From positions 2,368 to 66,367 of the forward strand of contig CAMBDS010000002.1 in the NCBI GenBank assembly GCA_945865405.1: a stretch of DNA of 64,000 nucleotides. Direction: 5' to 3'. The stretch's first letter is position 1; every line of letters starts with the position of its first letter. Shown piece by piece: positions 2,266 to 41,090 of this stretch. The position numbers were made by a program, and so were the translations under genes. Below the pieces are notes generated by a model. The model was not told the origin of the DNA. It saw only the letters and a program-made list of their open reading frames with translations, and did no database searches. The DNA is from Caldithrix abyssi DSM 13497. GTDB lineage: Bacteria > Electryoneota > AABM5-125-24 > Hatepunaeales > Hatepunaeaceae.

Positions 2266-4554
2266 TTATCGCATTAAGACGATTTTTTGAGTGGAAATGT
2301 CGGAACCTGATTGGAGGCGGACGAGATAGACTCCTGCGGGGGCGGAGGAGGCGTTCCAGACAAGTTTGGAATTTGGAGTTTGGAGTTTGGATTGAGGAAG
2401 GTCGAGCAGATCCTTTACAATCCGCCCCGACAGGTCGTAGATGCGTAGCCCGGCTTCCCCGAAGCCGGGGTTGAGAGAGAACCGTATGGTCAGAATCGAG
2501 TTAAACGGATTCGGCGACACACTCAATAACTCAGTCGCGTAGGGCCGATCTCCGAATCGGCCATCTTTCCCCACCCCCAAATCCCGCACCGTCACATCCC
2601 ACGTCACCGTATCCGCCTCAACCGAATCAGCCACAATGGCAGACACTTGGTAGTGCGGATTTAAATCCGCACTACCGGCAAATCTCCACTCCAGCCCCAA
2701 CTCCCCCTCCCGAACCACCTCCCCATCGACAAGCCACTGAATGCTTAGCGACTCGTTCTCCGGCTCACTCGGCACAACCTCGAAATGGACGACGCTGTCG
2801 GGTTCTACGTCGAAAGCAAGAGCCTCTGGCACATACGCCCAGATCGCCCCTCGAACGGCCACGTTCCACGTCACCTGATCGGACGACTGACCGCGATAAG
2901 CCCTTCCTTCAACCGTATAGTCCCCCGACCAAGGAAACTCGAACGTAACGCCGGCATCCCTGCCGGCTTCTTCTGTCTCCCCATTGCTCAGGTTCGTCTT
3001 CGTCCAGACGTATTCCGGTTCCTCTTCGCCAACATACTGAACAGTATCTATCGAGAAATCAACTAAGGAGCCTCTGCGTAGAGTGAGGTTGAGTGTATCG
3101 GGCGTAAACGCGGAGATGTAGAGGTCGGTGACGGTGACGTGCCATTGTACAGAATCGGCAAATTGGCCATCGGAGACTATGCAGACAACCTCGTGGTTAC
3201 CGACATCAGACCAGCTTAGGATTATTGCATTCGATTCTGAAACGACTTCGCCATCGATTTTATACCTAAAAATTACTGAGTCACCTTGAGGATCCTGAGC
3301 ACGAACTCTGAAAAGCAACTCTTGATCAATCAACATATTGACATCGGGCGGTGGCGGGCGAACAAATAGTATTTCAGGAGCTTGGGGTTCGTAACCTAAT
3401 GTCACGACTATACCTCTGCCGCCATTATCAGGATTACTCTGTTCTCCAACAAAGACGAACTCCTGATTACGGTTGACAATCCCCTCAAGCAATAAACCAC
3501 TACCTCCTCTTCCAGGAGGAACAACAAGCCTCAGTTCCCACTGAAGATTACCGGCGCGGTCTGTCAGCACGATTCCTGGAGCGGAATCTGCCCATCCTCC
3601 TATCAGCGCAATCGTTCCGTCATTCAATCGCGCCAATCCGGATGTTCCCAACCAATTTTCAATGTTTATCAATCGGCTATCCCAGCGTACTTCCCCATTC
3701 CTACTCACGCGGAGAACCCTTGGATAGCTTCTGTTGTGATTGAACCAGAAATTCCCGCCCAATAAAAAATCGCCATCATAAGATTCCATACCACTGATTG
3801 CAACATTACTTTCACCAACCGGGTATTGCCAATGATCGACAGTATGCAATTCGTAATCGACGTGTACCAAAGGTCCTGAACTTGTATTATTTTGGCCCGT
3901 AAAGTAGAATCCCTCTCCCGCAGCCTCCCGAGCTACAGTTATCTGAGAACAGATATCGGGATCGTAAGTTGCGTCGATTATAATTTCACCTTCCTCATCT
4001 ACCAAGACGGCGTATCCGTGAAATTCTTCATCAATCATTCTGCGACCTGCCAATAGAAATGTTCCCGCCTTTGTTTCGATAACACTACTGCATTGGCCTT
4101 GATCATTGCCGTTGTATCGACGTTCCCAAATTAACCTTCCGTCGTCTCCTCTGCACATAAAGGCAACAAAGTGATTGCTCGCTATACCCGCCCCGCCGAC
4201 AAGGATGTTACCAGCGTCTGTCTCGATCAAGCACTCCGGACTGTCGCTGGTTTGATCCCCAAATCCGTCCCACCATCGCTCCCAGATGATTTCTCCAACA
4301 TCATCGATTTTGAAGAGCCAGTTGTGAGCATAGGCTCCTGGCCCGCGACGTCCATGATTACTTCCGACACAGATATAGTTGTCATCCTCGCATTGATAGA
4401 TATCGCGGATATCTTCTAACCAAACGCCATAAAAGTGGTAGTCTCGTAAGATGGGCTGGGCACTTAGAGATGAAACTATCAGTGGAATCGAAGTCAGCCA
4501 GAGGAGTAGTCTATGGCTCGAAAATTGAAGGCTCATAATATTTTCTGTAAACAA
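2266..4554 (-). CDS. T9SS C-terminal-domain secreted protein, repeat-rich (beta-propeller-like)
   Basis: 762 aa. N-terminal signal peptide. C-terminus is SVSPNPFNSILTIRFSL...LRIYDLSGRIVKDLL...AGVYLVRLQSGSDISTQKIVLMR, a Por/T9SS sorting domain. Internal repeats are degenerate. Confidence 0.75.
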   Translation of the reverse strand: MFTENIMSLQFSSHRLLLWLTSIPLIVSSLSAQPILRDYHFYGVWLEDIRDIYQCEDDNYICVGSNHGRRGPGAYAHNWLFKIDDVGEIIWERWWDGFGDQTSDSPECLIETDAGNILVGGAGIASNHFVAFMCRGDDGRLIWERRYNGNDQGQCSSVIETKAGTFLLAGRRMIDEEFHGYAVLVDEEGEIIIDATYDPDICSQITVAREAAGEGFYFTGQNNTSSGPLVHVDYELHTVDHWQYPVGESNVAISGMESYDGDFLLGGNFWFNHNRSYPRVLRVSRNGEVRWDSRLINIENWLGTSGLARLNDGTIALIGGWADSAPGIVLTDRAGNLQWELRLVVPPGRGGSGLLLEGIVNRNQEFVFVGEQSNPDNGGRGIVVTLGYEPQAPEILFVRPPPPDVNMLIDQELLFRVRAQDPQGDSVIFRYKIDGEVVSESNAIILSWSDVGNHEVVCIVSDGQFADSVQWHVTVTDLYISAFTPDTLNLTLRRGSLVDFSIDTVQYVGEEEPEYVWTKTNLSNGETEEAGRDAGVTFEFPWSGDYTVEGRAYRGQSSDQVTWNVAVRGAIWAYVPEALAFDVEPDSVVHFEVVPSEPENESLSIQWLVDGEVVREGELGLEWRFAGSADLNPHYQVSAIVADSVEADTVTWDVTVRDLGVGKDGRFGDRPYATELLSVSPNPFNSILTIRFSLNPGFGEAGLRIYDLSGRIVKDLLDLPQSKLQTPNSKLVWNASSAPAGVYLVRLQSGSDISTQKIVLMR
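2365..2392. repeat. (TTTGGAR)4 heptanucleotide repeat inside T9SS cargo CDS
   Basis: tttggaatttggagtttggagtttggat. Encodes KLQTPNSKL in the minus frame. Confidence 0.85.
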
Positions 4555-4602
4555 TTGTAATCGGGGAGCATCTATCGATACTCCCCGAGTGCAAAATTGA
4601 CT

Positions 4603-5022
4603 CTACATTACGAAGGCGAATTGCCAATCAAGATAAGTACTTGAACCACCGCTTGTTGCGTTTCCCGGATTGGCACTGGGACTGACACCCCAATATTCCG
4701 TCTCGCCTTCGTTCGAATATCGAACCCACCAAGTAACAAAATTACCGGCTCGTTGATATGTGTATGTACCAAGACCTTGAGAGGTCGGGTCAGACCATCC
4801 ATCATCTGGTGAATTATTGTTATTGGCGTCAAAACAAAATTGCACACTAATTTCGTCTTCAGCAATTGGCACATGGCTTTCGCCATTCAGCCACCAACAA
4901 TAGACGTTGAAGTAAGTGTCTGCCTTCACCTCTTTCGGCGGCGGATAGACCAACACCCCGACCACAACCGCAATAATTGCAACCAGCCCGATCAGGGCTC
5001 TTAGTCGATCTTGCTTCTTCAT
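4603..5022 (-). CDS. small secreted/membrane-anchored hypothetical protein
   Basis: ORF track gives 4603..5100. The more plausible start is the internal MKKQDRLRALIGLVAIIAVVVGVLV, a signal or anchor helix. The Trp- and Asn-rich C-terminal part matches no known family. Confidence 0.45.
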   Translation of the reverse strand: MKKQDRLRALIGLVAIIAVVVGVLVYPPPKEVKADTYFNVYCWWLNGESHVPIAEDEISVQFCFDANNNNSPDDGWSDPTSQGLGTYTYQRAGNFVTWWVRYSNEGETEYWGVSPSANPGNATSGGSSTYLDWQFAFVM

Positions 5023-5262
5023 TTCAACCTCCAATTTGACTTTCTTAACGAATTTTCGTACATTGGAGGTGCATCCGTTTTGCGACGGACGCACCTCCAC
5101 ATTTATGAGCGTCTCTTCAACTTTTACGGGTTAGGTAGAGACGCTCGTGGTTTTTGACCACCGGGTTCTTTTAAGCAAAAAACCCGCCTCAAGGATCGGC
5201 AGAGCGTTATGAGACGCATCAGCCAATCCCCGGAGCGGGGCTTTAACTTTTTGGCAACCTAA

Positions 5263-5306
5263 GTTGCGAGGGGGTGCAAGGTGCAAGGTGCAAGGTGCAA
5301 GGTGCA
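5263..5306. repeat. (GGTGCAA)6 heptanucleotide tandem repeat, intergenic
   Basis: ggtgcaa x6, read directly. Lies upstream of the minus-strand small secreted protein gene. Confidence 0.9.
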
Positions 5307-5572
5307 AGGTGCAAGGAAAAGATCTGACCATTAGGCTTCCGGTGAAAGGTCTATAGAGTTCTTTTCAGTATCTACCATAACAATATAATAGCGTCATGAA
5401 TACATCGCAAGAAGTTCGGCATTTATTTTTTGAAGATAGGGTGGAGGATTGGGGGAATAACGACGTAAAGTGAAGAATGTGAAATGGTTGAGGCGAAGTA
5501 GAAAGAGGAAGAAGGTTAGTGGATACCGGCGTTCGCCGGTATGAGATGTTATTTAGTGAGAAGTGAGTTTAG

Positions 5573-5635
5573 ATGCTGGCAGACGAGACATCTGCCAGCA
5601 CAAGAGCGGACTTAAAGTCCGCCCTCCAAGAATAG
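5573..5635. repeat. REP-like paired hairpin element, copy 1 (just 3' of rsbW-like stop)
   Basis: gctggcagacg-agaca-tctgccagc, then gcggact-taa-agtccgc CCTCCAAGA. Confidence 0.7.
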
Positions 5636-5640: not shown

Positions 5641-6063
5641 TTATCCCACCCTCTTAGCATTTTTGGTCATTCTGACGACTTTCAGACCACCCGGCTCGGT
5701 GGAGAATTTGGCGCTGTCCATCAATTCGTTGATAAGATAAATGCCAAGCCCGCCGATTTTTCGATTCATCCACGTCGAAGTGAGATCTACTGGTGCAACT
5801 TCTTCCATCACGTACGGAGTCCCGTTCTCTCTGATCGTGATCGTCAAAGTGTTGTAGTCAGACTCTATCTCAAACTCGAACGTGCGCGAGGAATCTTCGT
5901 GAAGCCCATGCACAATGGCATTTGTGCATGCTTCTGCTACGGCAACCTGAACGTCATGGAGCTCGGTCACGCTCAGGTGGACGAACCCTGCATAGCGTTC
6001 AACCAATTCTGAGACGTCTGCCAGAGAGTTCCGGTCGGCAGGGAGGGTTAATTTCTCCCGCAA
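5641..6063 (-). CDS. anti-sigma factor serine-protein kinase (RsbW/SpoIIAB-like, HATPase_c)
   Basis: 140 aa. GHKL ATPase motifs are EACTNAIVHG (N-box) and GGLGIYLI (G-box). Sits immediately downstream of a STAS-domain gene. Confidence 0.7.
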   Translation of the reverse strand: MREKLTLPADRNSLADVSELVERYAGFVHLSVTELHDVQVAVAEACTNAIVHGLHEDSSRTFEFEIESDYNTLTITIRENGTPYVMEEVAPVDLTSTWMNRKIGGLGIYLINELMDSAKFSTEPGGLKVVRMTKNAKRVG

Positions 6064-6075
6064 GAGTGAAAACTC

Positions 6076-6429
6076 CTACCCGAAAAAGCTTTGGGTGGCA
6101 GTCGGCACATCGTCGAAAATCCTGATGACCGAAAAAAGCCCTGAAAGTTCAAAGACTTTGGAGACCGACTCCGGCAAAGCCGCCACGCGCAAATCTCCGC
6201 GGTGAGTGATGCGCAACTCTTTCGTCATCGCCAACACTACACGCAAGCCTGCTGACGCGATGTACTGTACGTTCGCCATGTTCAGCACGACGTGAGTCAA
6301 TCCGCGTCCGATGCAGTCGCGGATATATTGTTCGACCGATGGCGCTGTCGCCGCATCGAAGCGTCCGTCCAGATTGATCTGAACGACGTTATTCCATACC
6401 TGACCCGAGATATTCAATGTTTTTCCCAA
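6076..6429 (-). CDS. anti-sigma factor antagonist (STAS domain, SpoIIAA/RsbV-like)
   Basis: 117 aa. STAS pattern is LDGRFDAATAP...VVLNMANVQYIASAGLRVVL, with the conserved phosphorylatable Ser in the SAGL context. Confidence 0.75.
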   Translation of the reverse strand: MGKTLNISGQVWNNVVQINLDGRFDAATAPSVEQYIRDCIGRGLTHVVLNMANVQYIASAGLRVVLAMTKELRITHRGDLRVAALPESVSKVFELSGLFSVIRIFDDVPTATQSFFG

Positions 6430-6467
6430 TTTGTTTTCTTGGAGGGCGGATTCTTACTCCGCCTCAA

Positions 6468-9400
6468 TTACCTGACCAAAACTAATTTCGCAATAGCTGA
6501 TTTATCGGCCTGACTGACTCGCACCCAATAGATACCACTTGCCATATGATCTTCCCCAACCGAAGGAAAAAAGAATTTGTGGCTACCGGCTTGCATAACT
6601 GATCGATTGGCATAAACCACCTGCCCGAGCAAGTTGTAGAAGGCGAGGGAAACTTCGCCCGCGACTGCCACATCGACTGTCACCGTCACGCGGCTGTTGA
6701 ATGGATTGGGGAAGACTGGCCTCAAGCCAAATTCAGTCGGCAACACCGGCAGATTGATCGTGAACGACCATCCGCTGTCACCGGGAGCTGCGATGGTCGT
6801 AAAATTCCTCGTATCCATCGCCCGTACCCGCCAGAAGATAGTCATCCCCTCTGGAAGGCCATCGGTAACGTGGCTTACACGTGCAAGGTTCGCAGGAACA
6901 TCGGTAATATAAGTAAATGTGTCCAAAGTTGGCGCGCTCGAAGCAGGGAAATTACCGGTACGCGACCACTCGATGACGTACCTGACGGTGTCCCCCGGAT
7001 CGTTATCGACCGACTTGCTCCACCTGACCAGCACGGAATCGTTCCTGACGCTTGCCCCGTCGGGTGGTGATAACAATTGGAACTGACCGGGTTGATTATA
7101 CCTGTTGGACGCCATCGGCGAACCGTTTCGAACCAACGAAGCGCGCCAATTGGTTGAGTCTTCATTGCGCAATGCCGGATCGATCAATTCGAGCGTTGCG
7201 CCAAGCCCATCCGCTTCTCCGGGCCAGGGCGGAATATCGTTGAAGCGCACGGAGTCGATAGTCTCCAGACGGGAGCTAAGGAGCCTGACCTGATCGCCAT
7301 TCCCATCCAAACCAAAGCCCATATTGCCCAGGACGTTGTTCATCCCCGGAAAAAACCGGTGGAATTTCATAGTATCTTCAGCGACTACCAGGTATTGACC
7401 TGAGGGAATCGTTGTCCCGATGGGGAAAACGTAATGATGGGTAGAATCCTGATCCGAGAGGGACCAATCGGATAAGTTTACTTCGCCGTCTAGTGCGTAT
7501 AACTCGACCCAATCCCCTGTGTCGAAGCTATCAAGCGAATGGTAGTTGATCTCGTTGATAACCGGCAGTCCAACCAACCCTGGAGCGAGGGCAAAGATTG
7601 CCGTCAGTGAGCGGTCATTATCTAATGTTATCGTGATGCGGGAATCTGTCGAAGCTGAACCTCCCGTCCAACCGATAAAGCGATACCCGGGCAGCGGAAC
7701 TGCATCGAGCACTATCGGCACCGTTCTAAAATAGATTCCGCTCCAACCTGTCGGGATGATGTTGCGCCCGTTGATCTTGATGTCACCGCCAACGGGAGGA
7801 TTGCAGCTCAGGGTGATCGACGCGTGACCGGGCAGATTGAATCGCTCTTCGAGAAATTGACGCATCGCGGCGGGTCTGTTATGAGCAAAAGGAGGTATCG
7901 TAGCGACTTTCTCCTCCCATTCGGCAAGATTACGATCCCATCTGACAAGGTGACGCTCGACCTCTCCTTGTATCGTCGCCTTTTTTTCGTTCATATGACG
8001 CAACACATTGTCCGGCTTGAACTGAAAATTCATCAAATTGGCGAAACCGTTGATGAACTTTGCGCGGAATATAGGATTCTCGCACAGTTTACGCAGGTAA
8101 AGAGTTGCATAGGGAGGATTGGGCCAGACGGGTCCGTCAGGATCAAGGGCGTCGGCAAGGCTGTTGTGAACCCAAGAGCTGTCGGCATGTAAACCGAAGC
8201 CGAAGTCGAGGTCAAGCAGGAACCAGTGCCATTTTTCGCCAGGCCTCCTGATGCGGAATAATCGATTGTTGTTGCCGGGCCAATCGCCATTATCTACATA
8301 GATATTGACGGCGTTGTACTTGATAAACTCATCGATATCGACCATCTCTTCGGCAATCCGGTAATTATCGGCTAAAGATAGGTCGCGAGTGTTGAAAAAC
8401 TCGACCAATTCGGTATAGGCGTCCCATTCACCATTAACCTTTTCACCCCAAATTTCGAACTCATCAACTTCGCTCGGATCGACATTGCGGCGCTCGGCGA
8501 CAAACTGCTCGTTCATCTGTTGACGGATATTGAGTATCCCCCAGTAAGCCCCATTCAGATAAATAATAGCGGGTCGATAGGCAGAAATGTAGGGAAAATC
8601 CTCTCGCATCAATCCAGTCAGCAAATCGTCGCGGAAAATCGCATGATCCCAGTCTGATCCACCATTTCGCAAAACCAGAGACTCAAATTTATCGAATGAC
8701 CAATCGGGAAAGACCCGGTAGGCAATGTTGGGATCACCATACTTCGCCCTCGCCATGATTCGCAACGATTTCTGTGGAAATGATCTCGTCCAGCCGCCGT
8801 GAATCTTCAGGCCTGCATCGACCTCAAACGCTTCGAGGCCGTTGGTTTCGAACATCTCGACATGGACAGGCCGCTCCCAATTCTGCCAGAAGTTTGCTCC
8901 TCGAAAGGGCGGCAGCGGGTCGTATGTCGGCCCAAGGACGTACATCCCGGTCTCAGGATTCCAAAGATCGTCGGGCTTCATCGAAAGTGAAATTACCGGC
9001 AACGTAGGTCGGGGTCCTATGATGTAGCTCCTGACCCGGTCAGGGCTGAGCAACTCCCCCGGTATCCGCGCAACTGCTCTCACAACGCAAGATGTATCGA
9101 GCACAAACGGTCCAGTGTAAAATATGGACGATTCGTCTGGAGTTGAGCCGTCAAGCGTGTAATAAATATTCGCTTGTGTAATCGTGTCACGGATCGTGAC
9201 CGTTATCGGAGTCGTGTAAAAGCCAGGCAGTGGCGACATCAGCGGTTTCGGAGTGACAACAGTTCCTCCGACAAGCGGGTTGGGTTCTCCGGGCGTCGGA
9301 ATTTGGAAGATCCGCCAGTCGTTCGAACCATCGGGTGCTCGCCCTCGCGACATATTCGAGGGGACATCCTGAACTATCACTTCATCAACAACTGTCCCGT

Positions 9401-10322
9401 CTCCTCTTCGCAAAATCAGTGTGTCGTTCTCACCGGCAAGCTTGAAGTCGGTGTGCATCTGAAGCAAAAAGCCCCTTAGGGCTTCGACAGGATCACGAGT
9501 AACAACCGGTTGTCTTTTGAGACCAAGAGTAAAAAATGGAATGATCGACAGATCGTCCGATGCAGGATCAGAATTATGTACTTGAATTGCAAGGACGTTG
9601 CGGCCCTGCCTAACCAGTGCTCCAATCGTCGGGACAAAGAACAATTCGGGCCTGCCACCAGCCCACATAACAGCTTCGTGTTCATCGACCGAAGTCGAGT
9701 CAAATCGAGGTGGAAGCCCACCGACGTTGGCACGGGCAACCTCCTCTCCATTTACATAGGCGACAAAACCGTCATCATAATCAGCATGTAGGATAGCATA
9801 CTCTAAATCAGAAACATTATCGACATTAAAATCGATTCTGATATAGAGACTTGTTGTGGCTGGAACGATTGTCGAGTCATCGCCGTCACCATAGCCAAGG
9901 CTAAGCCTGCCACGTTGCCAGTCTGAATCGTTGATATCAGGCCAATACCAGCCAAATGCAGGTTCTGAAGCAGGGACAAGGTATCGGCACGGATCGCCGG
10001 GTCTGATGACAGTCTCGTTAAATGGAGCTAATTGCCCTTTGTTTTTGGCTGAAGCAAAGAACAAGACTCGCTGAAAAGCACTTAATTCGAAATTGGGAAT
10101 GGGCCACGGGAGGGTGTCGGAAGGATGATCGCAGATCGTCCAACCGTTTAATGAGACGGGGTCGAATGAGTTGTTGTACAACTCAAACCAGTCGGGGTAT
10201 CTTCCATCCTCATCCGCAATGGCAGCGAGATTGCCGGTCATGTACTCGTTGATCAAAACACCCTGTGCAAAAACGACCGGATTAATCAACAATACGGTTA
10301 TGACCGCAAACAGGTAACCCAT
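6468..10322 (-). CDS. CotH-kinase-family protein with two lamin-tail domains and a T9SS C-terminal sorting domain
   Basis: ORF track starts at 10499. The likely start is M60 (MGYLFAVITVLLINPVVFAQG, signal peptide), whose ATG overlaps the TAA of the upstream regulator as TAATG. The first lamin-tail domain is VLINEYMTG...DWFELYN...LNGWTI and the second is PVINEINYHSLD...GDWVELYALDGEVNLSDWSLSD. The CotH-like core is LVLRNGGSDWDHAIFRDDLL...AIIYLNGAYWGILNIRQQMNEQF. C-terminus is VFPNPFNSRVTVTV...IYWVRVSQADKSAIAKLVLVR. Confidence 0.8.
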   Translation of the reverse strand: MGYLFAVITVLLINPVVFAQGVLINEYMTGNLAAIADEDGRYPDWFELYNNSFDPVSLNGWTICDHPSDTLPWPIPNFELSAFQRVLFFASAKNKGQLAPFNETVIRPGDPCRYLVPASEPAFGWYWPDINDSDWQRGRLSLGYGDGDDSTIVPATTSLYIRIDFNVDNVSDLEYAILHADYDDGFVAYVNGEEVARANVGGLPPRFDSTSVDEHEAVMWAGGRPELFFVPTIGALVRQGRNVLAIQVHNSDPASDDLSIIPFFTLGLKRQPVVTRDPVEALRGFLLQMHTDFKLAGENDTLILRRGDGTVVDEVIVQDVPSNMSRGRAPDGSNDWRIFQIPTPGEPNPLVGGTVVTPKPLMSPLPGFYTTPITVTIRDTITQANIYYTLDGSTPDESSIFYTGPFVLDTSCVVRAVARIPGELLSPDRVRSYIIGPRPTLPVISLSMKPDDLWNPETGMYVLGPTYDPLPPFRGANFWQNWERPVHVEMFETNGLEAFEVDAGLKIHGGWTRSFPQKSLRIMARAKYGDPNIAYRVFPDWSFDKFESLVLRNGGSDWDHAIFRDDLLTGLMREDFPYISAYRPAIIYLNGAYWGILNIRQQMNEQFVAERRNVDPSEVDEFEIWGEKVNGEWDAYTELVEFFNTRDLSLADNYRIAEEMVDIDEFIKYNAVNIYVDNGDWPGNNNRLFRIRRPGEKWHWFLLDLDFGFGLHADSSWVHNSLADALDPDGPVWPNPPYATLYLRKLCENPIFRAKFINGFANLMNFQFKPDNVLRHMNEKKATIQGEVERHLVRWDRNLAEWEEKVATIPPFAHNRPAAMRQFLEERFNLPGHASITLSCNPPVGGDIKINGRNIIPTGWSGIYFRTVPIVLDAVPLPGYRFIGWTGGSASTDSRITITLDNDRSLTAIFALAPGLVGLPVINEINYHSLDSFDTGDWVELYALDGEVNLSDWSLSDQDSTHHYVFPIGTTIPSGQYLVVAEDTMKFHRFFPGMNNVLGNMGFGLDGNGDQVRLLSSRLETIDSVRFNDIPPWPGEADGLGATLELIDPALRNEDSTNWRASLVRNGSPMASNRYNQPGQFQLLSPPDGASVRNDSVLVRWSKSVDNDPGDTVRYVIEWSRTGNFPASSAPTLDTFTYITDVPANLARVSHVTDGLPEGMTIFWRVRAMDTRNFTTIAAPGDSGWSFTINLPVLPTEFGLRPVFPNPFNSRVTVTVDVAVAGEVSLAFYNLLGQVVYANRSVMQAGSHKFFFPSVGEDHMASGIYWVRVSQADKSAIAKLVLVR

Positions 10323-13300
10323 TACGCGCGAGGCGTGATATCTAAGGTTGAATTCCATTCTGTCAGATGTTTTGAGGTTTCTTCTGCCTGCTTGGTGATC
10401 TGTTTGGCTCGCTCTTTTTCGCCACGATTTGTCAAAATCCGTGCGTAATCCCGAAGTAGATCGGGTTGGATCACCGAGACATTGTTGTTGTTTCGACAAA
10501 TATCGATTGCCTGATTAAAATGACTTTCGGCATCGACAAAATTGTCCTGATCGAACAGCACCAGCCCCATTTCGTGATGGTAGCTGATCCAGTCTTCCGG
10601 GCTATCTTCACCCTGACACATGATATAGCAATCCGCAAGTGCATCGGCGGCACGGTTCAATTCCTTTTCAAGCCGGTGCGCTCTTGCGCTTAAACGATAG
10701 GTCTCCGCCAATTCAAGCCTTGTGCCATGGCTTCGAAGCAACTCAGCGGCTGACTCTAAAAGTGGGACAGCGCGACCCGCTTCTCCTTTTTTCAATAGCA
10801 ATTTGGCCTTAACCAAAAAGAGGAGACCCGTACCCCGAAGTGTCTCATCTGAGTCTGGTAAATTCTCAAGTGACCCCTCAACCTCGCCTATCAGCTTCTC
10901 GGCACCCTCGTAATCCCCTTGAAGGAGCTTCACGTCAGCAAGCGCTCTTTTTGCGGTAATAACCGCTATCGGTTGGCGGCTTGCCGGAGGAGCCACATCA
11001 CGCCCAAGCATTTTAGTCAGCTCGGCGCGGCGGTTTATCAGGTTTGATTGATTGTCGGAAGTACTGGAAAATTTCTGTAGCGCACTTGTCAGGACGTCGA
11101 TAGCCTGTTTGATTGCTCCTAACTGAATAAGGTGGTCGCTGTATTCGACAATCACCTCAAGCATTTTATCGGGTTCTTCGGCCAACCTCTCAAGTGCTGT
11201 TTCATAGGCAACTTTGGAATACCTCAAACCGGCGTGGCGGTCACCGTACCCAAACCAAAATCTTGCTGAAATCAAGAGCGAAGGTATCGCATCGGCTCGA
11301 TTGCCGGAATTGTAGAGGTAGTAAGCTCTGGCGTCATTACTGATCGGTTCGTTTGCCAATTCGATTGCTTTCAGGATATCCCTGAACATTCGTTGACGCT
11401 CAAGATGTGGGATCGTCTCGGCGATTGCCAACTTTATCATCTGATGATTGAACCCGAACGACAACCTGCCGCCCCGGTCGAGATTATGCAACAGGTTGCG
11501 ATCCTCAAGATCGACCATCATATCTTCGAGCGGGTCACGTTCCAACGGGACAATCTGTTGAGCAAGCTCAATGCTGAAGTCGCCGAGAATCAGCGATCCG
11601 GCTCTTAGAAGCCTAACATAATCGGCAGGAAGCTGAGACAGTCGGAAATTCGATATCTTCAGTAACAATGGCGGTACAAGCTTACGTTCGGTTGTCGGGG
11701 TGAAGTCGGGCTGATCGATCAACGCCGGGCTACGGATGAAATCGGTTTGACCGGCAATCAGTGAGTTTGTCAGTTCGATTGCGTATAGCGGGATGCCTGA
11801 TGAGTAGTGATAAATCCGCTCAACCTCCTCGACAGAGAGCTTCTCGATCACCTCCGGCGCTTTCTTCTTGAAAATCTCTATGATGTCATCATAAGAGAGG
11901 CTACCCAGTTCAATTCTGCGAAGTCGTCCGGTTCGGGCAATGGAGATAAGTGCCGAGGCGATTGTATCCTCGGAATTTTCCTCGAATGTCCGAAAGATAC
12001 CGATCAGCAAAAGCGGTAGCCGCTTCACTTCCTGAGCGAGGGTGGAGAAGACTTTATGCAAAGCTTCACCAGCCCAGTGCATATCGTCGAGTGCCACCAG
12101 TACCGGTTGCTGTTTGGCGAGAGATACAATCCAACGGCGGATGCCCTCAAGCAGGTGCGGCTCAGTCGAACCCTCCTGTTGTTGGATCACTTTTTCCTGT
12201 AGAACAAAGAGTTCTTGCAATTCCGCGCGGGCTGTGTCGGTCAATCTCGGATCGCGGCCAATAGATTCCAACACCTGCATCAGATCCTCAAGAGGCCTTG
12301 TCGATTCAATCTCCCGCGATTCACCAATACCGAGAATAAATTCCGATGGCAGCGAGCGAACGAATTCGCTGAATAACCTCGTCTTCCCAATCCCCATCTC
12401 ACCTGAGATAATCAGTACCAAACCCTGCCCCGATTGAACCTCTGTAATCAGGTTTTTCAGATCCTTCAACTCCTCCCGCCGACCGATAAACGGCACATCA
12501 GGCTTACCTGATGGTGCTGGCAGAAGCTCCTCGGGGATATGACTGGGGGGGTTTGTTTCATCCAATGTATGATCGGTCAGAGCAAGATTCGGGTCGATGA
12601 TTACTGGCGGGAGGTACTCTTCTAATTGCGACGGAACTGTAACGATGTAGGTTCCGTTCTGCAGCGAGTCGATCAATCTTACCATCTGTGGTGCGGGTGG
12701 TGCGTTAAAGTCCCGCTTCATCAATTGGGTGTAAACCTGGAACTGCCTGATGGCAGTCGAAACCCGCGCCATGTCAGCGTAAGCGCGAATCAATCCTTCG
12801 TGTGCGCGTTCGTAATCAGGTGCAAAAGAGAGGGCTCGCAAATAGACGTTCGATGCCAAAGCCGCCTGCCCCGTCTTGATGCAATACTCGCCAACCTCTT
12901 CTGAGGTACTTAAAAATGCCTGGTGCAACGTCTCGCGGCGGTGGTAAAGCCAATCCTCCCAATCAGGGAGATTCCGCAGCGTAAACCCATCCCAAAAGGG
13001 GCCTTTGTACAGTTCGAGTGCTTGTATTCTATCGACCATCTTATCACTCGGATTCTGAGTCGATATCAGGCGTTCAAATTCGCGGCCGTCGAGAAGGATC
13101 GATATTCCGGGGTTTAATTGGCAGGTTGACCGGTTGGTTGAGAGCAGGTCGGGGTCATCCTCAGTCTCTTTGAAGACTTTGCGGATGTTCCAAAGCGCAT
13201 AGCGGAGGTTATAGCGTGCCTGATCTTCCGGCGATTCGCTCCAAAACATCGAAATGAGCTTGTCGCGGGAAATCTGCTCGACGCCGGTATCTAACAAATA

Positions 13301-13444
13301 GCAAAGCAGTCCGATCACCTTTTGCGTTGTAAAACCGCTTAGGGTCCGACGACCTCGTCTTAACTTGACTCCTCCAAGAAAATCAACGTAGAGCGAATAG
13401 TTGGAAGAGTTTGAAGTTGGCTTCAATGTTCGGTTCTGCTCCAT
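10322..13444 (-). CDS. SARP/BTAD-family transcriptional regulator fused to an AAA/STAND ATPase and TPR repeats (AfsR-like)
   Basis: 1040 aa. N-terminal OmpR/SARP winged helix is LYVDFLGGVKLRRGRRTLSGFTTQKVIGLLCYLL...NLRYALWNIRKVF. BTAD region is ELYKGPFWDGF...DWEDWLYHRRETL. P-loop is LVLIISGEMGIGKTRLF. The C-terminal half is helical and TPR-like. Confidence 0.8.
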   Translation of the reverse strand: MEQNRTLKPTSNSSNYSLYVDFLGGVKLRRGRRTLSGFTTQKVIGLLCYLLDTGVEQISRDKLISMFWSESPEDQARYNLRYALWNIRKVFKETEDDPDLLSTNRSTCQLNPGISILLDGREFERLISTQNPSDKMVDRIQALELYKGPFWDGFTLRNLPDWEDWLYHRRETLHQAFLSTSEEVGEYCIKTGQAALASNVYLRALSFAPDYERAHEGLIRAYADMARVSTAIRQFQVYTQLMKRDFNAPPAPQMVRLIDSLQNGTYIVTVPSQLEEYLPPVIIDPNLALTDHTLDETNPPSHIPEELLPAPSGKPDVPFIGRREELKDLKNLITEVQSGQGLVLIISGEMGIGKTRLFSEFVRSLPSEFILGIGESREIESTRPLEDLMQVLESIGRDPRLTDTARAELQELFVLQEKVIQQQEGSTEPHLLEGIRRWIVSLAKQQPVLVALDDMHWAGEALHKVFSTLAQEVKRLPLLLIGIFRTFEENSEDTIASALISIARTGRLRRIELGSLSYDDIIEIFKKKAPEVIEKLSVEEVERIYHYSSGIPLYAIELTNSLIAGQTDFIRSPALIDQPDFTPTTERKLVPPLLLKISNFRLSQLPADYVRLLRAGSLILGDFSIELAQQIVPLERDPLEDMMVDLEDRNLLHNLDRGGRLSFGFNHQMIKLAIAETIPHLERQRMFRDILKAIELANEPISNDARAYYLYNSGNRADAIPSLLISARFWFGYGDRHAGLRYSKVAYETALERLAEEPDKMLEVIVEYSDHLIQLGAIKQAIDVLTSALQKFSSTSDNQSNLINRRAELTKMLGRDVAPPASRQPIAVITAKRALADVKLLQGDYEGAEKLIGEVEGSLENLPDSDETLRGTGLLFLVKAKLLLKKGEAGRAVPLLESAAELLRSHGTRLELAETYRLSARAHRLEKELNRAADALADCYIMCQGEDSPEDWISYHHEMGLVLFDQDNFVDAESHFNQAIDICRNNNNVSVIQPDLLRDYARILTNRGEKERAKQITKQAEETSKHLTEWNSTLDITPRA

Positions 13445-13748
13445 TACGATAAATATAGTGAATTAGCCACTTTTTTCCAATGGAACAACAGCTTAATAGC
13501 AGTATTCCGTTAACCTTGATCTTGCCTTGCCTTTCCAGCGCCGAGTCGCTGTGGTTGGAAGCAGATCAGCCAAATCTTCGCGCTTCACAGCTCCCAATAT
13601 TTAATAAAATTATTTTTTTAATATTTTTTCAATAAAACAAAATTAAAACGGAGACTAAACGCTGCTTTCACTGCCATACCAACGCAGCGGATTAAATTAC
13701 CCCACGTAACTTCAACGATAGAACCTTTAGGACCCAAGGACAACCATT

Positions 13749-15425
13749 ATGCTTTATTCTCGCGTCAGCTCAGGTCTCGATTTTCTCGATGCCGCCACCG
13801 GCGGAATCTATTCCAAGCGTTCCTACCTGCTTCACGGACCATCGCAGTCAGGTCGCACCACCGCTGTCCTCCAATTCCTTCTCGCAGGAATCGAGAACGG
13901 CGAAAATGGCATCCTTATATCGAGTGACCGTATCGAGAACGTGATCCTTAAGGCCGAGACCATCGGCATCCCACTCGAATCGCACCTGATCGCCAACCGC
14001 CTTGTGCTTATGGAATATCCCAAAGAGATCCTGAGCGGCCGCTTCCATTACGGCACCATCGTCCAACTCCTCGGCGAATTCGAGCAGTACATCCAGCATT
14101 ATAACTGCTCGCGACTCGCTTTTGATACGTTGCTGCCACTACTGACGATGGCACGTGAACCCCACCTCGTCAACTATATTTACTCACTGATGAACTCGCT
14201 CGAGGCATTGGGTGTCACCGTGCTCGTCACTACCGGCGAACCGAATAGCCCGACCGCGCAGCGCATCACCCAACTGGTCGAAGACGCCGCAGTCGGCTCG
14301 TTTGCCCTTTCCCGTGTCGATACCCGCCAGGGCATGCAACGCTTCTTCTCCATCAACAAGCTCGTAGATAAATTCACCCCGCCGATGACCTTCCGCATCA
14401 AGCTCGAGTACGGAGGCGGCTTGTTACAGGATATTCAGTCTGAAGACACCGCAAACATCGCTCCGACAACAAACCTGACCATTAACGATATCCCGATCCA
14501 TGTCGGCGTACTTGACGGTGATGATGATAGTCAAATCCAACTCGAAGAGATCTTCTCCAAGGGCAGCCAGGTCTATCCCTTCGAGACCGTCGAAGATCTC
14601 GCGTCACAGATGACCGGACTCGATTGCGACATTTTCTTTCTCAACATCTCACGTCCCGGCGTCCATTGGCAACGCGCCCTGAAAATGCTCCGCGAATCGT
14701 ACCCCAAAATGCCTATCTTTCTTTTCAGCGAAGAACGCAGCCTTCGCTTCACCTACCAACAAGCCAAACTTGCTGGTGCTGACGCTCTCTTTTTCAAGCC
14801 GTTTGTCCCCAACGACATTGTCCGCGCACTCGAGAAGTCACTTCGCTCCTTCGGAACTTTCGAAGATCTTGCCGCTCGCAGAAACCTCTCCTCTGCTTCA
14901 GGCGATCTGCCCGAAGATTTCATGGACGAAGACGGCCTTGGCTCGCGCCGTGAAGCCAACGCTGGCGTCTCACTCCTGCCACCTGCTGCATTTCGTGAGC
15001 TTGTCCATCGACAAATCTGGAAGTCTAACCAGAACAAATCACGCTGCGCTCTCGTCTCGTTCAAGATCGTTTACACTGGTGAACTTCCCAAAACTCCCAA
15101 TCTGCCGCAGGGCTTGGAACTCGTACTGAAAGTCGCCCAGATCATCTCTTCCTGCCTCCGCGGTGTCTCCGACAGTACCTCACGATATATGGACAAGGTT
15201 GTCGTTGTGCTCGAAGATTCCGACCGTAAAGGCGCACAGGCATTCGCCCGTCGCGCTGTAGGTGAGTTGAAGACGGGATTGCTTGAAAAACTGAACATTC
15301 AGGTCGATAAACACATCAATGTCCTCACCGCCATCGGCGTCTATCCGGAAGATGCCGACAACGTCAACGATCTTATCACCGAAGTTACCGATGTCCCCCG
15401 CAACTTCTTGAAGACGGTCGCCTGA
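13749..15425 (+). CDS. KaiC/RecA-like ATPase-fold protein with a receiver-like domain and a degenerate GGDEF-like domain (all three apparently non-canonical)
   Basis: 558 aa. KaiC/RadA-like N-terminus is GGIYSKRSYLLHGPSQSGRTTAVLQF, with Arg in place of the Walker A Lys. The middle REC-like domain has Asn in place of the phospho-acceptor Asp (LDCDIFFLNISRPG); the conserved Ser/Thr (PIFLFSE) and Lys (FFKPF) are retained. The C-terminus is GGDEF-like with the motif degenerated to RYMDKVVVVLED. Confidence 0.65.
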   Translation: MLYSRVSSGLDFLDAATGGIYSKRSYLLHGPSQSGRTTAVLQFLLAGIENGENGILISSDRIENVILKAETIGIPLESHLIANRLVLMEYPKEILSGRFHYGTIVQLLGEFEQYIQHYNCSRLAFDTLLPLLTMAREPHLVNYIYSLMNSLEALGVTVLVTTGEPNSPTAQRITQLVEDAAVGSFALSRVDTRQGMQRFFSINKLVDKFTPPMTFRIKLEYGGGLLQDIQSEDTANIAPTTNLTINDIPIHVGVLDGDDDSQIQLEEIFSKGSQVYPFETVEDLASQMTGLDCDIFFLNISRPGVHWQRALKMLRESYPKMPIFLFSEERSLRFTYQQAKLAGADALFFKPFVPNDIVRALEKSLRSFGTFEDLAARRNLSSASGDLPEDFMDEDGLGSRREANAGVSLLPPAAFRELVHRQIWKSNQNKSRCALVSFKIVYTGELPKTPNLPQGLELVLKVAQIISSCLRGVSDSTSRYMDKVVVVLEDSDRKGAQAFARRAVGELKTGLLEKLNIQVDKHINVLTAIGVYPEDADNVNDLITEVTDVPRNFLKTVA

Positions 15426-18400: not shown

Positions 18401-18455
18401 TGATGGTCAGTATCGTTATCGCGGTGTCTCAGCTTCATTAACATTGGAGCGATAG
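15426..18455 (+). CDS. TPR-repeat protein with C-terminal outer-membrane beta-barrel (PgaA/BcsC-like exopolysaccharide export porin)
   Basis: 1009 aa. GTG start abuts the upstream stop as TGAGTG. Signal peptide is MKSISLIVGLFILTLFVALPVEAQ. About 650 aa are TPR-like helical repeats. The last ~300 aa show an alternating hydrophobic beta-strand pattern typical of a porin. Confidence 0.6.
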   Translation: MKSISLIVGLFILTLFVALPVEAQKQSREMLNRAMTLEAGGVTMEAVTTYEEYLKKEPGDASARARLIALLLKLNKRQDAINHIVVLRKLDPGNASYSSFYAIEDDYRLNVEVAQDADFKAKIKAGTATAATYLEYSKFLAGRNDEPGSREMLRKYLEHKPTDFDAQLNLARRYTWAKQTEEGQRHAVAAVNLQPDNVDANHLLGDLHYWKGNEDAALVSYQRASRGAPNNKEIKAKVSKIIDAPGYRERRMIEALAKEPDTKVSLDLAKYYLDHHREWEADSLVRRRLVKVPEDQDAAKLLGEIEKRRQERYAVQIREYKARLSVAPRDTTLLLALARYYVSVPTLDSALEIYDRFMKIYPSNYDVRMERAKVLMWNGRSGEASAEFRVISIAQPDNIEASLSLADCLIMNDVNVEEAENIYRRELTVHPDSIRPRIGYADALRKGGRYDEAQEQYKAVLAKDPENERAIIGLEWINRDLTPLLRRLEKNVAENPRDAKARRRLAGLYYDAKRYWDAEQQVNLLLAENPEDKQLQSFLADIKARAKAFRTAGLDSLQRDVAAQPENSQLRLRLADELAGVGRNDEAIIQYNMLLQADPENTFISMKIVEIYLAQGKMKEASVILQQVADDNPGNFEYRFKLAQVLSWMGDYEGAMREYDAAMRINPNSIECQVALADITKWRGDPYTAYDMYSRILAMNPSNPTARKSIDELKGTLIRGVQGSLQEASDSEHFKMRETRASLSVNISLRMGAQGGFGKIHFEQSDAVTLALYSETGWFLFGQIDYRIDPLTRASGQIKYYTFALKKSQGLRFEIEHNFKDFPNLDGMIGTAYYTSQEAVLDLASTRNLLSWTDNLKSEKLGAVVNYIYSPKWVGEGEVALIAVSDGNTRTDIWAEWRRVFSKLIQIGARYENISAKRVAAQYWSPSAYQTISLVAQMQNSFNKWSYEVHGGVGRVLSTSDALRNFSAQIQWRIAPAIYFSAGILDLATTRVDGQYRYRGVSASLTLER

Positions 18456-21067: not shown

Positions 21068-21070
21068 CCG

Positions 21071-39893: not shown

Positions 39894-39984
39894 AATTATT
39901 CTAAAATTCCAAAGTTAGAAAGTTGAAAAGAAAACGAAGAGAGTAATTAAAAGACTTATTGTGCCCCAGGTCGAAATATCTTCT

Positions 39985-41061: not shown

Positions 41062-41090
41062 TTTTTTTCACCGTGGAGTTTTTGTGGTTA

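What the first reader, a model, noticed from the sequence alone, without database searches (positions are those of the whole stretch)
5641..13444. Operon coupling a SARP-STAND-TPR regulator, a CotH-kinase/lamin-tail T9SS cargo protein and a STAS/RsbW partner-switching pair
Four minus-strand genes are closely spaced and co-oriented. The regulator-CotH junction is TAATG. In order they are:
- the AfsR-like SARP-STAND-TPR regulator;
- a 1284-aa CotH-family (atypical protein kinase) protein with two lamin-tail domains and a T9SS sorting domain;
- a STAS anti-sigma antagonist;
- an RsbW-like serine kinase.

The unit ends at a REP-like hairpin. Placing an atypical secreted kinase under a dedicated STAND regulator and next to a partner-switching module is an unusual regulatory wiring.
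Basis: partly seen in the sequence, partly recalled or inferred. Interest (0 to 1): 0.55.

Follow-up and report, generated by a model that had tools for sequence, protein, structure and literature searches.

The report
Regulator, secreted CotH kinase, switch pair
The four genes are really there, but they look like three separate, individually ordinary modules that sit together only in one narrow group of Caldithrix-like bacteria; the big regulator's evolutionarily stable partner is the sugar-polymer (biofilm) operon on its other side, not the secreted kinase.

Summary
Four minus-strand genes at 5641-13444 encode a SARP(BTAD)-STAND-TPR regulator, an LTD/CotH/T9SS-tail protein, a STAS protein and an RsbW-like kinase. 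TAATG is at the first junction and REP-like hairpins lie at the end.

The interpretation as one dedicated regulatory unit is only partly supported. The set recurs in just two related Caldithrix-type loci (SARP 69-82% identical).

- **Regulator:** in all 9 distinct places where it is at least 47% identical, counting the window, its conserved neighbour is the divergent PNAG-like exopolysaccharide operon. That operon's upstream region carries an invariant SARP-style direct-repeat element. What lies downstream of the regulator varies.
- **CotH protein:** it belongs to a very large FCB-group family (>1500 homologues). It has intact catalytic residues and a CotH-kinase fold. About 32 homologue loci outside the clade show no SARP, STAS or RsbW gene beside it.
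- **STAS-RsbW:** elsewhere the orthologues form STAS-RsbW-HAMP/PP2C modules without CotH. Here a REP-like element separates the pair from CotH. No PP2C phosphatase or sigma factor is in the 64 kb.

Only SARP-CotH coupling looks real, through a conserved 36-37-nt overlap. Verdict: a lineage-specific juxtaposition of known parts, of low-to-moderate interest.

The parts
10322..13444 (-). Large SARP-type STAND regulator, 1040 aa. It has an N-terminal OmpR-like wHTH (weak match), BTAD, an AAA_16 NOD with Walker A GEMGIGKT and Walker B LDDMHW, and C-terminal TPR.
   Evidence: Pfam. NCBIfam AfsR N-terminal region 9-260 at 1.1e-12, below cut-off. A tight orthogroup of about 30 proteins, then a cliff to 27% identity.
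13452..13480 (-). Promoter-like site of the regulator gene (TTGGAA-17-TATATT). The TATATTT box ends about 8-10 nt before the ATG, which suggests a leaderless or near-leaderless mRNA.
   Evidence: TATATTT or TATAAT is conserved at the same place in L001, L035, L047, L048, L031 and L036. That it functions as a promoter is an inference.
6468..10358 (-). T9SS cargo protein with domain order LTD - jelly-roll-like region - CHB_HEX_C/Fn3_assoc - CotH kinase core - Flg_new_2 - LTD - FN3-like - Por_Secre_tail. It is 1296 aa from ATG 10358, or 1284 aa from ATG 10322 (TAATG).
   Evidence: Pfam. The AlphaFold model of the core (pLDDT 81.7) best matches B. cereus CotH 5jd9 at E 4.7e-10. The catalytic D680, N685 and D704 are invariant. 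The start is discussed.
6438..6467 (-). REP-like palindromic unit (TTGAGGCGGAGTAAGAATCCGCCCTCCAAG) in the CotH-STAS spacer. It has no U-tract.
   Evidence: L001 has CTTGGAGGGCGGGTTTAAACCCGCCCTCCAAG at the same position.
6076..6417 (-). STAS anti-sigma-antagonist-like protein, 113 aa from TTG 6417. The longest ORF starts at TTG 6429. Ser59 (numbering from 6429) is at the SpoIIAA Ser58 position.
   Evidence: Pfam STAS 3.4e-18. SpoIIAA 1th8_B at 2.4e-13 with Ser aligned. IAS-GLRV is invariant in 13 orthologues.
5641..6063 (-). RsbW/SpoIIAB-like GHKL serine kinase / anti-sigma-type protein, 140 aa. It starts 12 nt after the STAS stop.
   Evidence: HATPase_c_2 at 4.7e-24. B. subtilis RsbW 6m36 at 3e-9. 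N-box EACTN and G2 IGGLG are conserved.
5575..5630 (-). Composite REP/BIME-like element made of two GC-rich hairpins, directly after the RsbW stop.
   Evidence: Fold of -39 kcal/mol, z = -6.25. A near-identical composite lies at about 45760-45815.
13646..13698 (+). Conserved candidate operator/promoter of the divergent exopolysaccharide operon: AAACG-N6-AAACG-N4-TTTCAC-N8-CAACG-N8-TAAATT. It lies 103-51 nt upstream of the KaiC-like gene.
   Evidence: Present with the same spacing in all 8 distinct orthologous loci. Six 6-mers are shared by all 8, against 0 in 500 shuffles. The layout fits the SARP promoter rule quoted in PMC10936776.
13749..27492 (+). Divergent synthase-dependent exopolysaccharide operon. 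Gene order: KaiC-like ATPase-REC-(degenerate) GGDEF, 1009-aa TPR protein, PgaC/IcaA-like GT2, orf244, 927-aa polysaccharide deacetylase, orf756, PKD protein.
   Evidence: Pfam. NCBIfam PgaC_IcaA at 2.9e-65, below cut-off. Conserved next to the regulator in L001, L031/32, L035, L036, L037, L047, L048 and L050.

Best explanation
The region is a lineage-specific juxtaposition of three independent, individually ordinary modules in a Caldithrix-like (Calditrichota) genome.

1. **Regulator and exopolysaccharide operon.** The large SARP/STAND/TPR regulator is the pathway regulator of the divergently transcribed PNAG-like exopolysaccharide operon. By analogy with AfsR, its TPR/NOD part would hold the SARP domain inactive until a signal and ATP release it. 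SARP protomers would then bind side by side to the conserved AAACG direct repeats (11 bp and about 22 bp apart, the last one 8 bp from a TAAATT box) and recruit RNA polymerase. This step is inferred.
2. **CotH protein.** In a narrow clade, a common FCB-group T9SS-secreted LTD-CotH kinase-like protein lies immediately downstream. Its start codon is embedded in the regulator's last codons. It is therefore most likely co-transcribed and translationally coupled with the regulator, as a passenger rather than as the regulator's target. The overlap is shown; the coupling is inferred.
3. **STAS/RsbW.** This pair is a separate partner-switching module. In relatives it is a STAS-RsbW-HAMP/PP2C sensor-phosphatase cassette. 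Here it has lost adjacency to its phosphatase, has no sigma factor nearby, and is set off from CotH by a REP-like hairpin. The hairpin may stabilise or attenuate the upstream transcript.
For: **Regulator and exopolysaccharide operon**
- All 9 distinct places with the regulator at 47% identity or more have the divergent KaiC-like/TPR/GT2 operon: window, L001, L031/32, L035, L036, L037, L047, L048, L050.
- The operator-like block is invariant in all 8 distinct loci compared, at -103 to -66 from the KaiC-like ATG. Shared 6-mers number 6, against 0 in shuffles.
- Its geometry matches the published SARP rule.
- The motif is absent upstream of SARP, CotH and STAS.

**What lies downstream of the regulator**
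- It differs among loci: CotH-STAS-RsbW in 3, orf174 + T9SS745 in L031, AAA_15/AAA_21 in L036, GroES/EL in L037.

**CotH**
- More than 1500 homologues share the same architecture.
- About 32 loci outside the clade have no SARP, STAS or RsbW nearby.
- The embedded ATG is conserved in the 3 loci.

**STAS/RsbW**
- STAS orthologues at 54-59% identity lie in STAS-RsbW-HAMP/SpoIIE cassettes.
- The CotH-STAS spacer holds REP-like or palindromic repeats and varies from 50 to 70 to 292 nt.
Against: - The three genes CotH, STAS and RsbW are present or absent as a block at this site: present in the window, L001 and L035, absent in L031. This could reflect a functional link.
- The spacer hairpin has no U-tract, and no promoter for STAS was identified. 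Read-through from CotH into STAS-RsbW therefore cannot be excluded.
- No binding or expression data exist. The AAACG repeats could belong to another factor. The third repeat is 23 bp from the second rather than 22 bp.
- The wHTH of the regulator is below the Pfam cut-off.
- Regulator orthologues at 39-44% identity (L033, L038, L039, L052) lack the exopolysaccharide operon, so the pairing is not universal.
- In L001 the regulator carries an in-frame stop at codon 109.
Confidence: 0.6

Rival explanations
1. The four genes form one dedicated operon. The STAND regulator specifically controls the secreted CotH kinase, and the STAS/RsbW partner switch acts on the same process through an unlinked sigma factor.
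For: - The genes are co-oriented and tightly spaced, and SARP and CotH overlap.
- The set is conserved in L001 and L035 despite only 54-69% CotH identity and indels further downstream.
- The spacer hairpin lacks a U-tract.
Against: - There is no association outside the narrow clade for any pair of the modules.
- The regulator's conserved partner and the only conserved SARP-style repeat element are on the exopolysaccharide side.
- No sigma factor or PP2C phosphatase is in the 64 kb.
- The spacer is invaded by different repeats and varies from 50 to 292 nt.
Confidence: 0.12
2. CotH has been functionally recruited into the exopolysaccharide/biofilm programme of this clade. Because it is translated from the regulator's own transcript, it is made whenever the regulator is made. 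After T9SS export it would modify matrix or cell-surface components, for example by phosphorylating them or by binding them through its LTD/CHB_HEX_C modules. STAS/RsbW is unrelated.
For: - The embedded start codon is conserved in 3 loci.
- The catalytic residues are intact and the fold is that of a CotH kinase.
- A CHB_HEX_C module, known from hexosaminidases, sits next to a PgaC-like GlcNAc-polymer operon.
- Some distant homologues sit beside GT2 or GH genes.
Against: - The same domain set occurs in more than 1500 homologues that are not next to such operons, so the modules say nothing specific here.
- An extracellular ATP source is unexplained.
- Relatives with the same exopolysaccharide operon and regulator lack CotH at this site.
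Confidence: 0.2
3. The STAS/RsbW pair is a non-sigma partner switch whose target is a neighbouring signalling protein, either the KaiC-REC-GGDEF protein or the STAND regulator. This would be analogous to Pseudomonas HsbA acting on a diguanylate cyclase.
For: - There is no sigma factor in the window.
- The phosphorylatable Ser and the kinase boxes are conserved.
- STAS is under strong constraint (84-87% identity) while RsbW is only 49-54% identical.
- The Pseudomonas precedent is from my own knowledge and was not checked here.
Against: - Orthologous STAS-RsbW-PP2C cassettes in L044-L046 have neither protein nearby.
- The proximity here spans 7-8 kb and another transcription unit.
- No direct evidence supports it.
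Confidence: 0.08

Closest known systems
AfsR of Streptomyces coelicolor (a 'large' SARP: SARP domain + NOD + TPR)
   Same: The domain order is the same: wHTH/BTAD, STAND ATPase with Walker A and B, then TPR. The candidate target promoter has direct repeats one and about two helical turns apart, the last one 8 bp from a -10-like box, as described for SARPs.
   Different: - Only about 25% identical to other SARPs, and its own orthogroup is confined to Calditrichota-type bacteria.
- The wHTH is below the Pfam cut-off.
- The associated genes are an exopolysaccharide operon, not an antibiotic cluster.
- The repeat motif (AAACG) is unrelated to the afs box.
- The organism is not an actinomycete, and its promoter and sigma-factor conventions are unknown.
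CotH spore-coat kinase of Bacillus (PDB 5jd9/5jda; B. subtilis D228 and D251 are catalytic)
   Same: The fold is the same atypical kinase fold: Foldseek E 4.7e-10, TM 0.64-0.69. The catalytic Asp, the Asn and the metal-binding Asp are kept as D680, N685 and D704.
   Different: - About 14% identity.
- Embedded in a 1284-1296-aa multidomain protein with two LTDs, CHB_HEX_C and a T9SS tail.
- Exported rather than acting in a mother-cell cytoplasm.
- The organism is not a spore former.
- Substrates and ATP source are unknown.
RsbV-RsbW (sigma B) and SpoIIAA-SpoIIAB (sigma F) partner-switching pairs of Bacillus
   Same: A STAS protein with Ser at the SpoIIAA Ser58 position is followed 12 nt later by a GHKL kinase with N and G2 boxes.
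   Different: - No sigma factor gene and no PP2C phosphatase gene are adjacent or anywhere in the 64 kb.
- The residue before the Ser is Ala, not Asp.
- The G1 box has Glu in place of Asp in the whole orthogroup.
- Relatives have a membrane HAMP/SpoIIE phosphatase as third gene.
pgaABCD / icaADBC poly-N-acetylglucosamine systems (for the divergent operon)
   Same: It combines a GT2 synthase whose best match is PgaC/IcaA, a polysaccharide deacetylase, and a large TPR protein with weak PgaA/BcsC similarity.
   Different: - All matches are below the equivalog cut-offs.
- The operon starts with a KaiC-like ATPase-REC-degenerate GGDEF protein.
- It contains three proteins without family matches.
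- The polymer is unknown.
REP/BIME elements of enterobacteria
   Same: Short imperfect GC-rich palindromes are dispersed in intergenic 3' regions, sometimes in tandem and in both orientations, including inside a gene cluster.
   Different: The sequence is unrelated. Only 4-5 units were seen in 64 kb. Genome-wide abundance and any RAYT transposase were not examined.

Membership tests
Large SARP (AfsR-like) STAND regulators | N-terminal OmpR-type winged-helix DNA-binding domain | tested here: inconclusive
   Trans_reg_C scores E 0.0021 and 18.5 bits, against a cut-off of 26.2. The AfsR model aligns to residues 9-260 at 1.1e-12, far below the equivalog cut-off. This region is the most conserved part of the orthogroup.
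Large SARP (AfsR-like) STAND regulators | BTAD (bacterial transcriptional activation domain) | tested here: met
   PF03704 at 7.6e-15 and 56 bits, against a cut-off of 22.1; residues 139-261.
Large SARP (AfsR-like) STAND regulators | NOD/STAND ATPase with Walker A and B, followed by a TPR sensor | tested here: met
   AAA_16 at 3.8e-21. GEMGIGKT and LDDMHW are invariant in 21 orthologues. TPR_12 and TPR_MalT lie at the C-terminus.
Large SARP (AfsR-like) STAND regulators | Target promoter with direct repeats 11 or 22 bp apart, the 3' repeat 8 bp from the -10 element | tested here: met
   This is a sequence pattern only. AAACG lies at 13646 and 13657 (11 bp apart), CAACG at 13680 (23 bp further on), then 8 nt to TAAATT at 13693. 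The pattern is conserved in 8 loci, and the rule is quoted. Binding was not tested.
CotH kinase family (PF08757) | Full-length CotH domain and atypical kinase fold | tested here: met
   Pfam 1.7e-43 over model positions 1-321 of 322. The model has pLDDT 81.7 and pTM 0.83, and its top hits are 5jd9/5jda.
CotH kinase family (PF08757) | Catalytic Asp, Asn and metal-binding Asp (B. subtilis D228 and D251) | tested here: met
   D680, N685 and D704 lie in invariant columns that align with B. cereus D224, N229 and D247. The mutant data come from PMC7821199.
CotH kinase family (PF08757) | Protein kinase activity on defined substrates | not testable with these tools
   This needs biochemistry.
T9SS type A cargo | C-terminal sorting domain | tested here: met
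   Por_Secre_tail scores 31.3 bits against a cut-off of 27. TIGR04183 scores 37.8 bits against a cut-off of 23.
T9SS type A cargo | N-terminal Sec signal peptide | tested here: inconclusive
   No predictor was available. The sequence shows MEFNLRYHASRVMGYLFAVITVLLINPVVFA/QG from ATG 10358.
T9SS type A cargo | T9SS machinery encoded in the genome | not testable with these tools
   Only 64 kb is held. Two other Por_Secre_tail proteins are in the window.
Partner-switching module (RsbV/RsbW type) | STAS antagonist with a phosphorylatable Ser | tested here: met
   Ser59 aligns with SpoIIAA Ser58 and is invariant in 13 orthologues.
Partner-switching module (RsbV/RsbW type) | GHKL serine kinase / anti-sigma partner | tested here: met
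   HATPase_c_2 at 4.7e-24 and RsbW 6m36 at 3e-9. The G1 box has Glu in place of Asp in all orthologues.
Partner-switching module (RsbV/RsbW type) | Cognate PP2C phosphatase in the module | tested here: not met
   None is present in the window. One is present as the third gene in orthologous modules L044-L046.
Partner-switching module (RsbV/RsbW type) | Target sigma factor encoded with the module | tested here: not met
   No sigma-factor domain is found in any ORF of 120 aa or more in the window, nor in L044-L046.
Single four-gene operon | Same strand, with overlaps or gaps too short for a promoter or terminator | tested here: inconclusive
   SARP and CotH overlap, and the STAS-RsbW gap is 12 nt. 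The CotH-STAS gap of 50 nt holds a stable REP-like hairpin and is 70 nt in L001 and 292 nt in L035.
Single four-gene operon | Gene set conserved beyond close relatives | tested here: not met
   It is found only in the window, L001 and L035. It is absent from all other regulator, CotH and STAS orthologue loci.
REP/BIME-like dispersed palindromes | Several copies of one imperfect palindrome in intergenic regions | tested here: met
   Units lie at 5601-5630, 6438-6467, about 45714-45740 and about 45790-45815, with a partner hairpin at 5575-5599 and at about 45755-45780. The exact 9-mer GGAGGGCGG occurs 3 times, always in such hairpins.

The most novel reading that the evidence does not exclude
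In this Caldithrix-like clade, a secreted CotH kinase has been wired into a SARP-controlled exopolysaccharide/biofilm programme by embedding its start codon in the regulator gene. The adjacent orphan STAS/RsbW switch, lacking both a sigma factor and a phosphatase gene nearby, has been re-targeted to a component of that programme, either the STAND regulator or the KaiC-REC-GGDEF protein. This would give a non-sigma partner switch governing matrix production and an extracellular kinase.
Probability: 0.08. Interest if true: 0.6.

Novelty: new member of a known kind. Interest (0 to 1): 0.3.

Why it matters
As proposed, the finding would have linked three signalling systems into one unusual circuit. 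The comparative evidence instead shows that gene adjacency in a single contig over-states functional coupling here.

Two points remain useful:
- **A testable SARP pairing outside actinomycetes.** A large SARP/STAND regulator is conserved next to a PNAG-like exopolysaccharide operon, with a conserved direct-repeat operator. This extends the SARP paradigm from antibiotic clusters to matrix production in a poorly studied phylum.
- **An unexplained family of exported kinases.** More than 1500 T9SS-exported LTD-CotH proteins keep intact kinase catalytic residues. Their substrates and ATP source outside the cell are unknown. The literature searches made here found no paper that treats them.

Tried and rejected
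- **PDB search with the full-length CotH protein:** phmmer found nothing. A profile of 17 homologues was needed to reach 5jd9.
- **Structure prediction with locus-derived sequences:** It was redone with database proteins.
- **Nguyen et al. 2016 (PNAS):** not held. The catalytic-residue data were taken from PMC7821199 instead.
- **Rfam and tRNA scans of the window:** no hits.
- **Strict hairpin pattern GGCGGA-N-TCCGCC:** only 2 hits. The 9-mer with 1 mismatch is not above chance, at 17 hits against 15 expected. The REP-like claim therefore rests on the longer composite similarity seen by eye.
- **Degenerate-kinase idea for RsbW:** I considered that Glu for Asp in the G1 box, plus fast divergence, marks a degenerate kinase. 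I rejected it because the Glu is present in all orthologues, including those with an adjacent PP2C.
- **AAACG-N6-AAACG upstream of SARP, CotH or STAS:** searched for and not found.
- **Literature searches:** CotH + lamin tail domain, CotH + T9SS, and SARP + exopolysaccharide gave nothing relevant.
- **Consensus terminator scan:** no U-tract terminator between any of the four genes.

Full report
**1. What is in the sequence**

Four minus-strand ORFs fill 5641-13444.

- **Regulator, 10322-13444:** BTAD 7.6e-15, AAA_16 3.8e-21, C-terminal TPR_12/TPR_MalT, and a sub-threshold OmpR-type Trans_reg_C.
- **1284-aa protein:** a full-length CotH domain (1.7e-43), two LTD stretches, CHB_HEX_C_1/Fn3_assoc, Flg_new_2 and Por_Secre_tail. 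NCBIfam also finds the T9SS sorting domain.
- **117-aa ORF:** STAS, 3.4e-18.
- **140-aa ORF:** HATPase_c_2, 4.7e-24.

TAATG is present at 10324-10320. Two strong hairpins follow the last gene.

**2. Refinements of the anatomy**

An ATG at 10358 lies inside the regulator's Glu-Trp codons (GAATGG), 37 nt before its stop. It gives CotH a more canonical signal peptide, MEFNLRYHASRV-MGYLFAVITVLLINPVVFA/QG.

The same embedded ATG opens the CotH reading frame in the two syntenic loci L001 and L035. In L001 it is the only ATG in that frame upstream of the conserved N-terminus that I could find by eye. The regulator-CotH overlap is thus a conserved feature of this clade, and co-transcription with translational coupling is the natural reading (an inference).

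The STAS gene most likely starts at TTG 6417, giving 113 aa like all database orthologues. This leaves a 50-nt spacer after CotH.

That spacer is almost filled by the palindrome TTGAGGCGGAGTAAGAATCCGCCCTCCAAG. It is the inverted form of the unit CTTGGAGGGCGGAC...GTCCGCTCTTG that follows RsbW. The RsbW-distal composite (that unit plus a GCTGGCAGA hairpin) recurs almost verbatim at about 45760-45815, with a further unit at 45714-45740.

L001 has CTTGGAGGGCGGGTTTAAACCCGCCCTCCAAG in its 70-nt CotH-STAS spacer. L035 has a 292-nt spacer containing two direct copies of a different palindromic repeat.

So 'REP-like' is apt. However, one such element lies inside the proposed operon, and that spacer is evolutionarily unstable.

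**3. Origin**

The best genome match is an uncultured Caldithrix MAG (L001). Named regulator orthologues are from Calditrichota and Candidatus Hatepunaea. The identical CotH and regulator proteins sit on a 228,885-bp contig in public data.

**4. Is the arrangement conserved?**

Only narrowly. L001 and L035 have the layout exopolysaccharide operon <> SARP-CotH-STAS-RsbW. Identities to the window are:

| Locus | SARP | CotH | STAS | RsbW |
|---|---|---|---|---|
| L001 | 82% | 69% | 85-87% | 53-54% |
| L035 | 69% | 54% | 84% | 49% |

*Regulator.* Its orthologues form a tight group of about 30 proteins, followed by a cliff to 27% identity. I examined their contexts.

- All nine distinct places with at least 47% identity, counting the window, carry the divergently transcribed KaiC-like ATPase-REC-GGDEF / TPR / GT2 operon. 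These are the window, L001, L031/32, L035, L036, L037, L047, L048 and L050.
- Downstream of the regulator the genes differ. There is CotH in three loci, orf174 + a T9SS protein in L031, AAA_15/AAA_21 and a helicase in L036, and GroES/EL in L037. L050 has none of the window genes downstream.
- The L031 pair (orf174 + T9SS protein) is homologous to the window's orf165 + T9SS762, which lie after RsbW.
- Orthologues at 39-44% identity have neither the exopolysaccharide operon nor CotH.

*CotH.* More than 1500 proteins at E <= 1e-30 share its architecture across Ignavibacteria, KSB1, Bacteroidota and others. In 29 genome loci and 3 further distinct contexts, sensitive searches found no SARP, STAS or RsbW neighbour. 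The one exception is an unrelated RsbW-like gene 9 kb away in a Faecalibacterium contig.

*STAS.* Orthologues at 54-59% identity lie in Lactamase_B | STAS - HATPase_c_2 - (dCache)-HAMP-SpoIIE cassettes with no CotH or SARP.

Each module therefore has its own independent evolutionary context.

**5. A conserved cis element points the regulator at the other side**

I aligned the 150 nt upstream of the KaiC-like gene from the eight distinct loci. This reveals an invariant block, AAACG-N6-(A/T)AACG-N4-TTTCAC ... AAC(G/A)-N8-TAAATT, at -103 to about -50.

Six 6-mers are shared by all eight intergenic regions, against none in 500 shuffles. In the window the repeats start at 13646, 13657 and 13680, and TAAATT starts at 13693.

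SARPs are reported to bind direct repeats spaced 11 or 22 bp apart, with the 3' repeat 8 bp from the -10 element (PMC10936776). The block fits this, with 23 bp rather than 22 bp for the second spacing.

The two-repeat motif occurs nowhere upstream of SARP, CotH or STAS. Binding itself is inferred, not shown.

The operon encodes the following:
- a PgaC/IcaA-like GT2 (2.9e-65, below the equivalog cut-off);
- a 927-aa polysaccharide deacetylase;
- a 1009-aa TPR protein with weak PgaA/BcsC similarity;
- several proteins with no family match.

This makes it a synthase-dependent, PNAG-like exopolysaccharide system.

**6. The CotH core**

A profile of 17 homologues reaches B. cereus CotH at 1.3e-6. 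The invariant columns N678, D680, N685 and D704 (VDNGDWPGNNN ... WHWFLLDLDFG) align with B. cereus D224, N229 and D247. These correspond to B. subtilis D228 and D251, whose mutation inactivates the kinase.

An AlphaFold model of residues 470-860 has pLDDT 81.7 and pTM 0.83. It matches 5jd9/5jda first (E 4.7e-10, TM 0.64-0.69), then other kinase-like folds.

The protein is thus a bona fide, probably active, CotH-family member, and a typical one for its large family. What an exported kinase phosphorylates, and with what ATP, is unknown for the whole family. My literature searches found nothing on it.

**7. The partner-switching pair**

STAS Ser59 aligns with the phosphorylated Ser58 of SpoIIAA and is invariant in 13 orthologues. 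The kinase is closest to B. subtilis RsbW (3e-9) and SpoIIAB, and it has N and G2 boxes.

A Glu replaces the usual G1-box Asp. This holds for the whole orthogroup, including members with an adjacent phosphatase, so it is not a sign of decay.

No sigma factor or PP2C domain occurs in any ORF of 120 aa or more in the 64 kb. The module is therefore incomplete locally. Its output cannot be named from these data.

**8. Conclusion**

Even so, the 'unusual wiring' is best explained as a clade-specific juxtaposition of three parts:
- a SARP/STAND regulator tied to the divergent exopolysaccharide operon;
- a common T9SS LTD-CotH protein riding on the regulator's transcript;
- a separate STAS-RsbW remnant of a three-gene sensor cassette, set apart by a REP-like element.

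CotH, STAS and RsbW are present or absent together at this site. This keeps a functional link possible but unproven. Synteny among three genomes this closely related is also expected by descent alone.

Noticed in passing
window 13646-13698 (+) and 13749-27492 (+): A PNAG-like synthase-dependent exopolysaccharide operon. Its first gene fuses a KaiC-like ATPase, a receiver domain and a weak or degenerate GGDEF domain. It is preceded by an invariant direct-repeat element, AAACG-N6-AAACG-N4-TTTCAC...AACG-N8-TAAATT, that is conserved in 8 loci down to 47% regulator identity.
   Followed up: yes
window 5575-5630, 6438-6467, ~45714-45815: A family of GC-rich palindromic units built around CTTGGAGGGCGGAC, sometimes paired with a GCTGGCAGA hairpin. 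They lie at the 3' ends of genes in both orientations and behave like REP/BIME elements. Genome-wide count and any associated transposase are unknown.
   Followed up: partly
window 5273-5316: A perfect 7-nt microsatellite (GGTGCAA x 6.3) in the 540-nt gene-free stretch between RsbW and orf165.
   Followed up: no
L001 7065-7067: The regulator orthologue in the Caldithrix MAG L001 has an in-frame stop replacing Gln109 (STC*LNP). The rest of the gene stays 82% identical. This could be a pseudogene, a population variant or an assembly error.
   Followed up: partly
L035 13640-13890: The CotH-STAS spacer of L035 contains two direct copies, about 115 nt each, of a composite palindromic repeat (GGACAAGCG..CGCTTGTC plus a long CACCAAGACAC hairpin). 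It resembles a MITE or REP insertion.
   Followed up: no
window 13452-13457 and the equivalent sites in L001, L035, L047, L048: A conserved TATATTT box ends only about 8-10 nt before the regulator's ATG. This suggests a leaderless or near-leaderless transcript for the regulator.
   Followed up: partly
window 2266-5100 (-); L031 13515-16346 and 18446-21199: A small ORF (165 aa, no family match) is paired with a T9SS-tail protein of about 750 aa. The pair is duplicated in tandem in L031, where one copy directly follows the regulator. It is a mobile or expanding gene pair of unknown function.
   Followed up: partly
window 48298-57732 (-): A GlgE-type alpha-glucan gene cluster with unusual fusions. 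One 1316-aa protein joins GH77 4-alpha-glucanotransferase to a CBM48/alpha-amylase branching-enzyme-like part. One 1117-aa protein joins a TreS-like alpha-amylase to a maltokinase N-cap. GlgE is also present.
   Followed up: no
window 38601-43910 (-): A seven-bladed WD40 protein gene (39985-41061) sits between the 2-oxoglutarate dehydrogenase E1 and E2 genes.
   Followed up: no
L036/L050 intergenic region (L050 ~2090-2260): The regulator/KaiC-like intergenic region of the 47%-identity relative holds tandem copies of a palindromic repeat of about 34 nt (GGGTAGCCCGGACGCGCCGTCGTCCGGGAAAGGC). L036 is masked with Ns at the same place.
   Followed up: no
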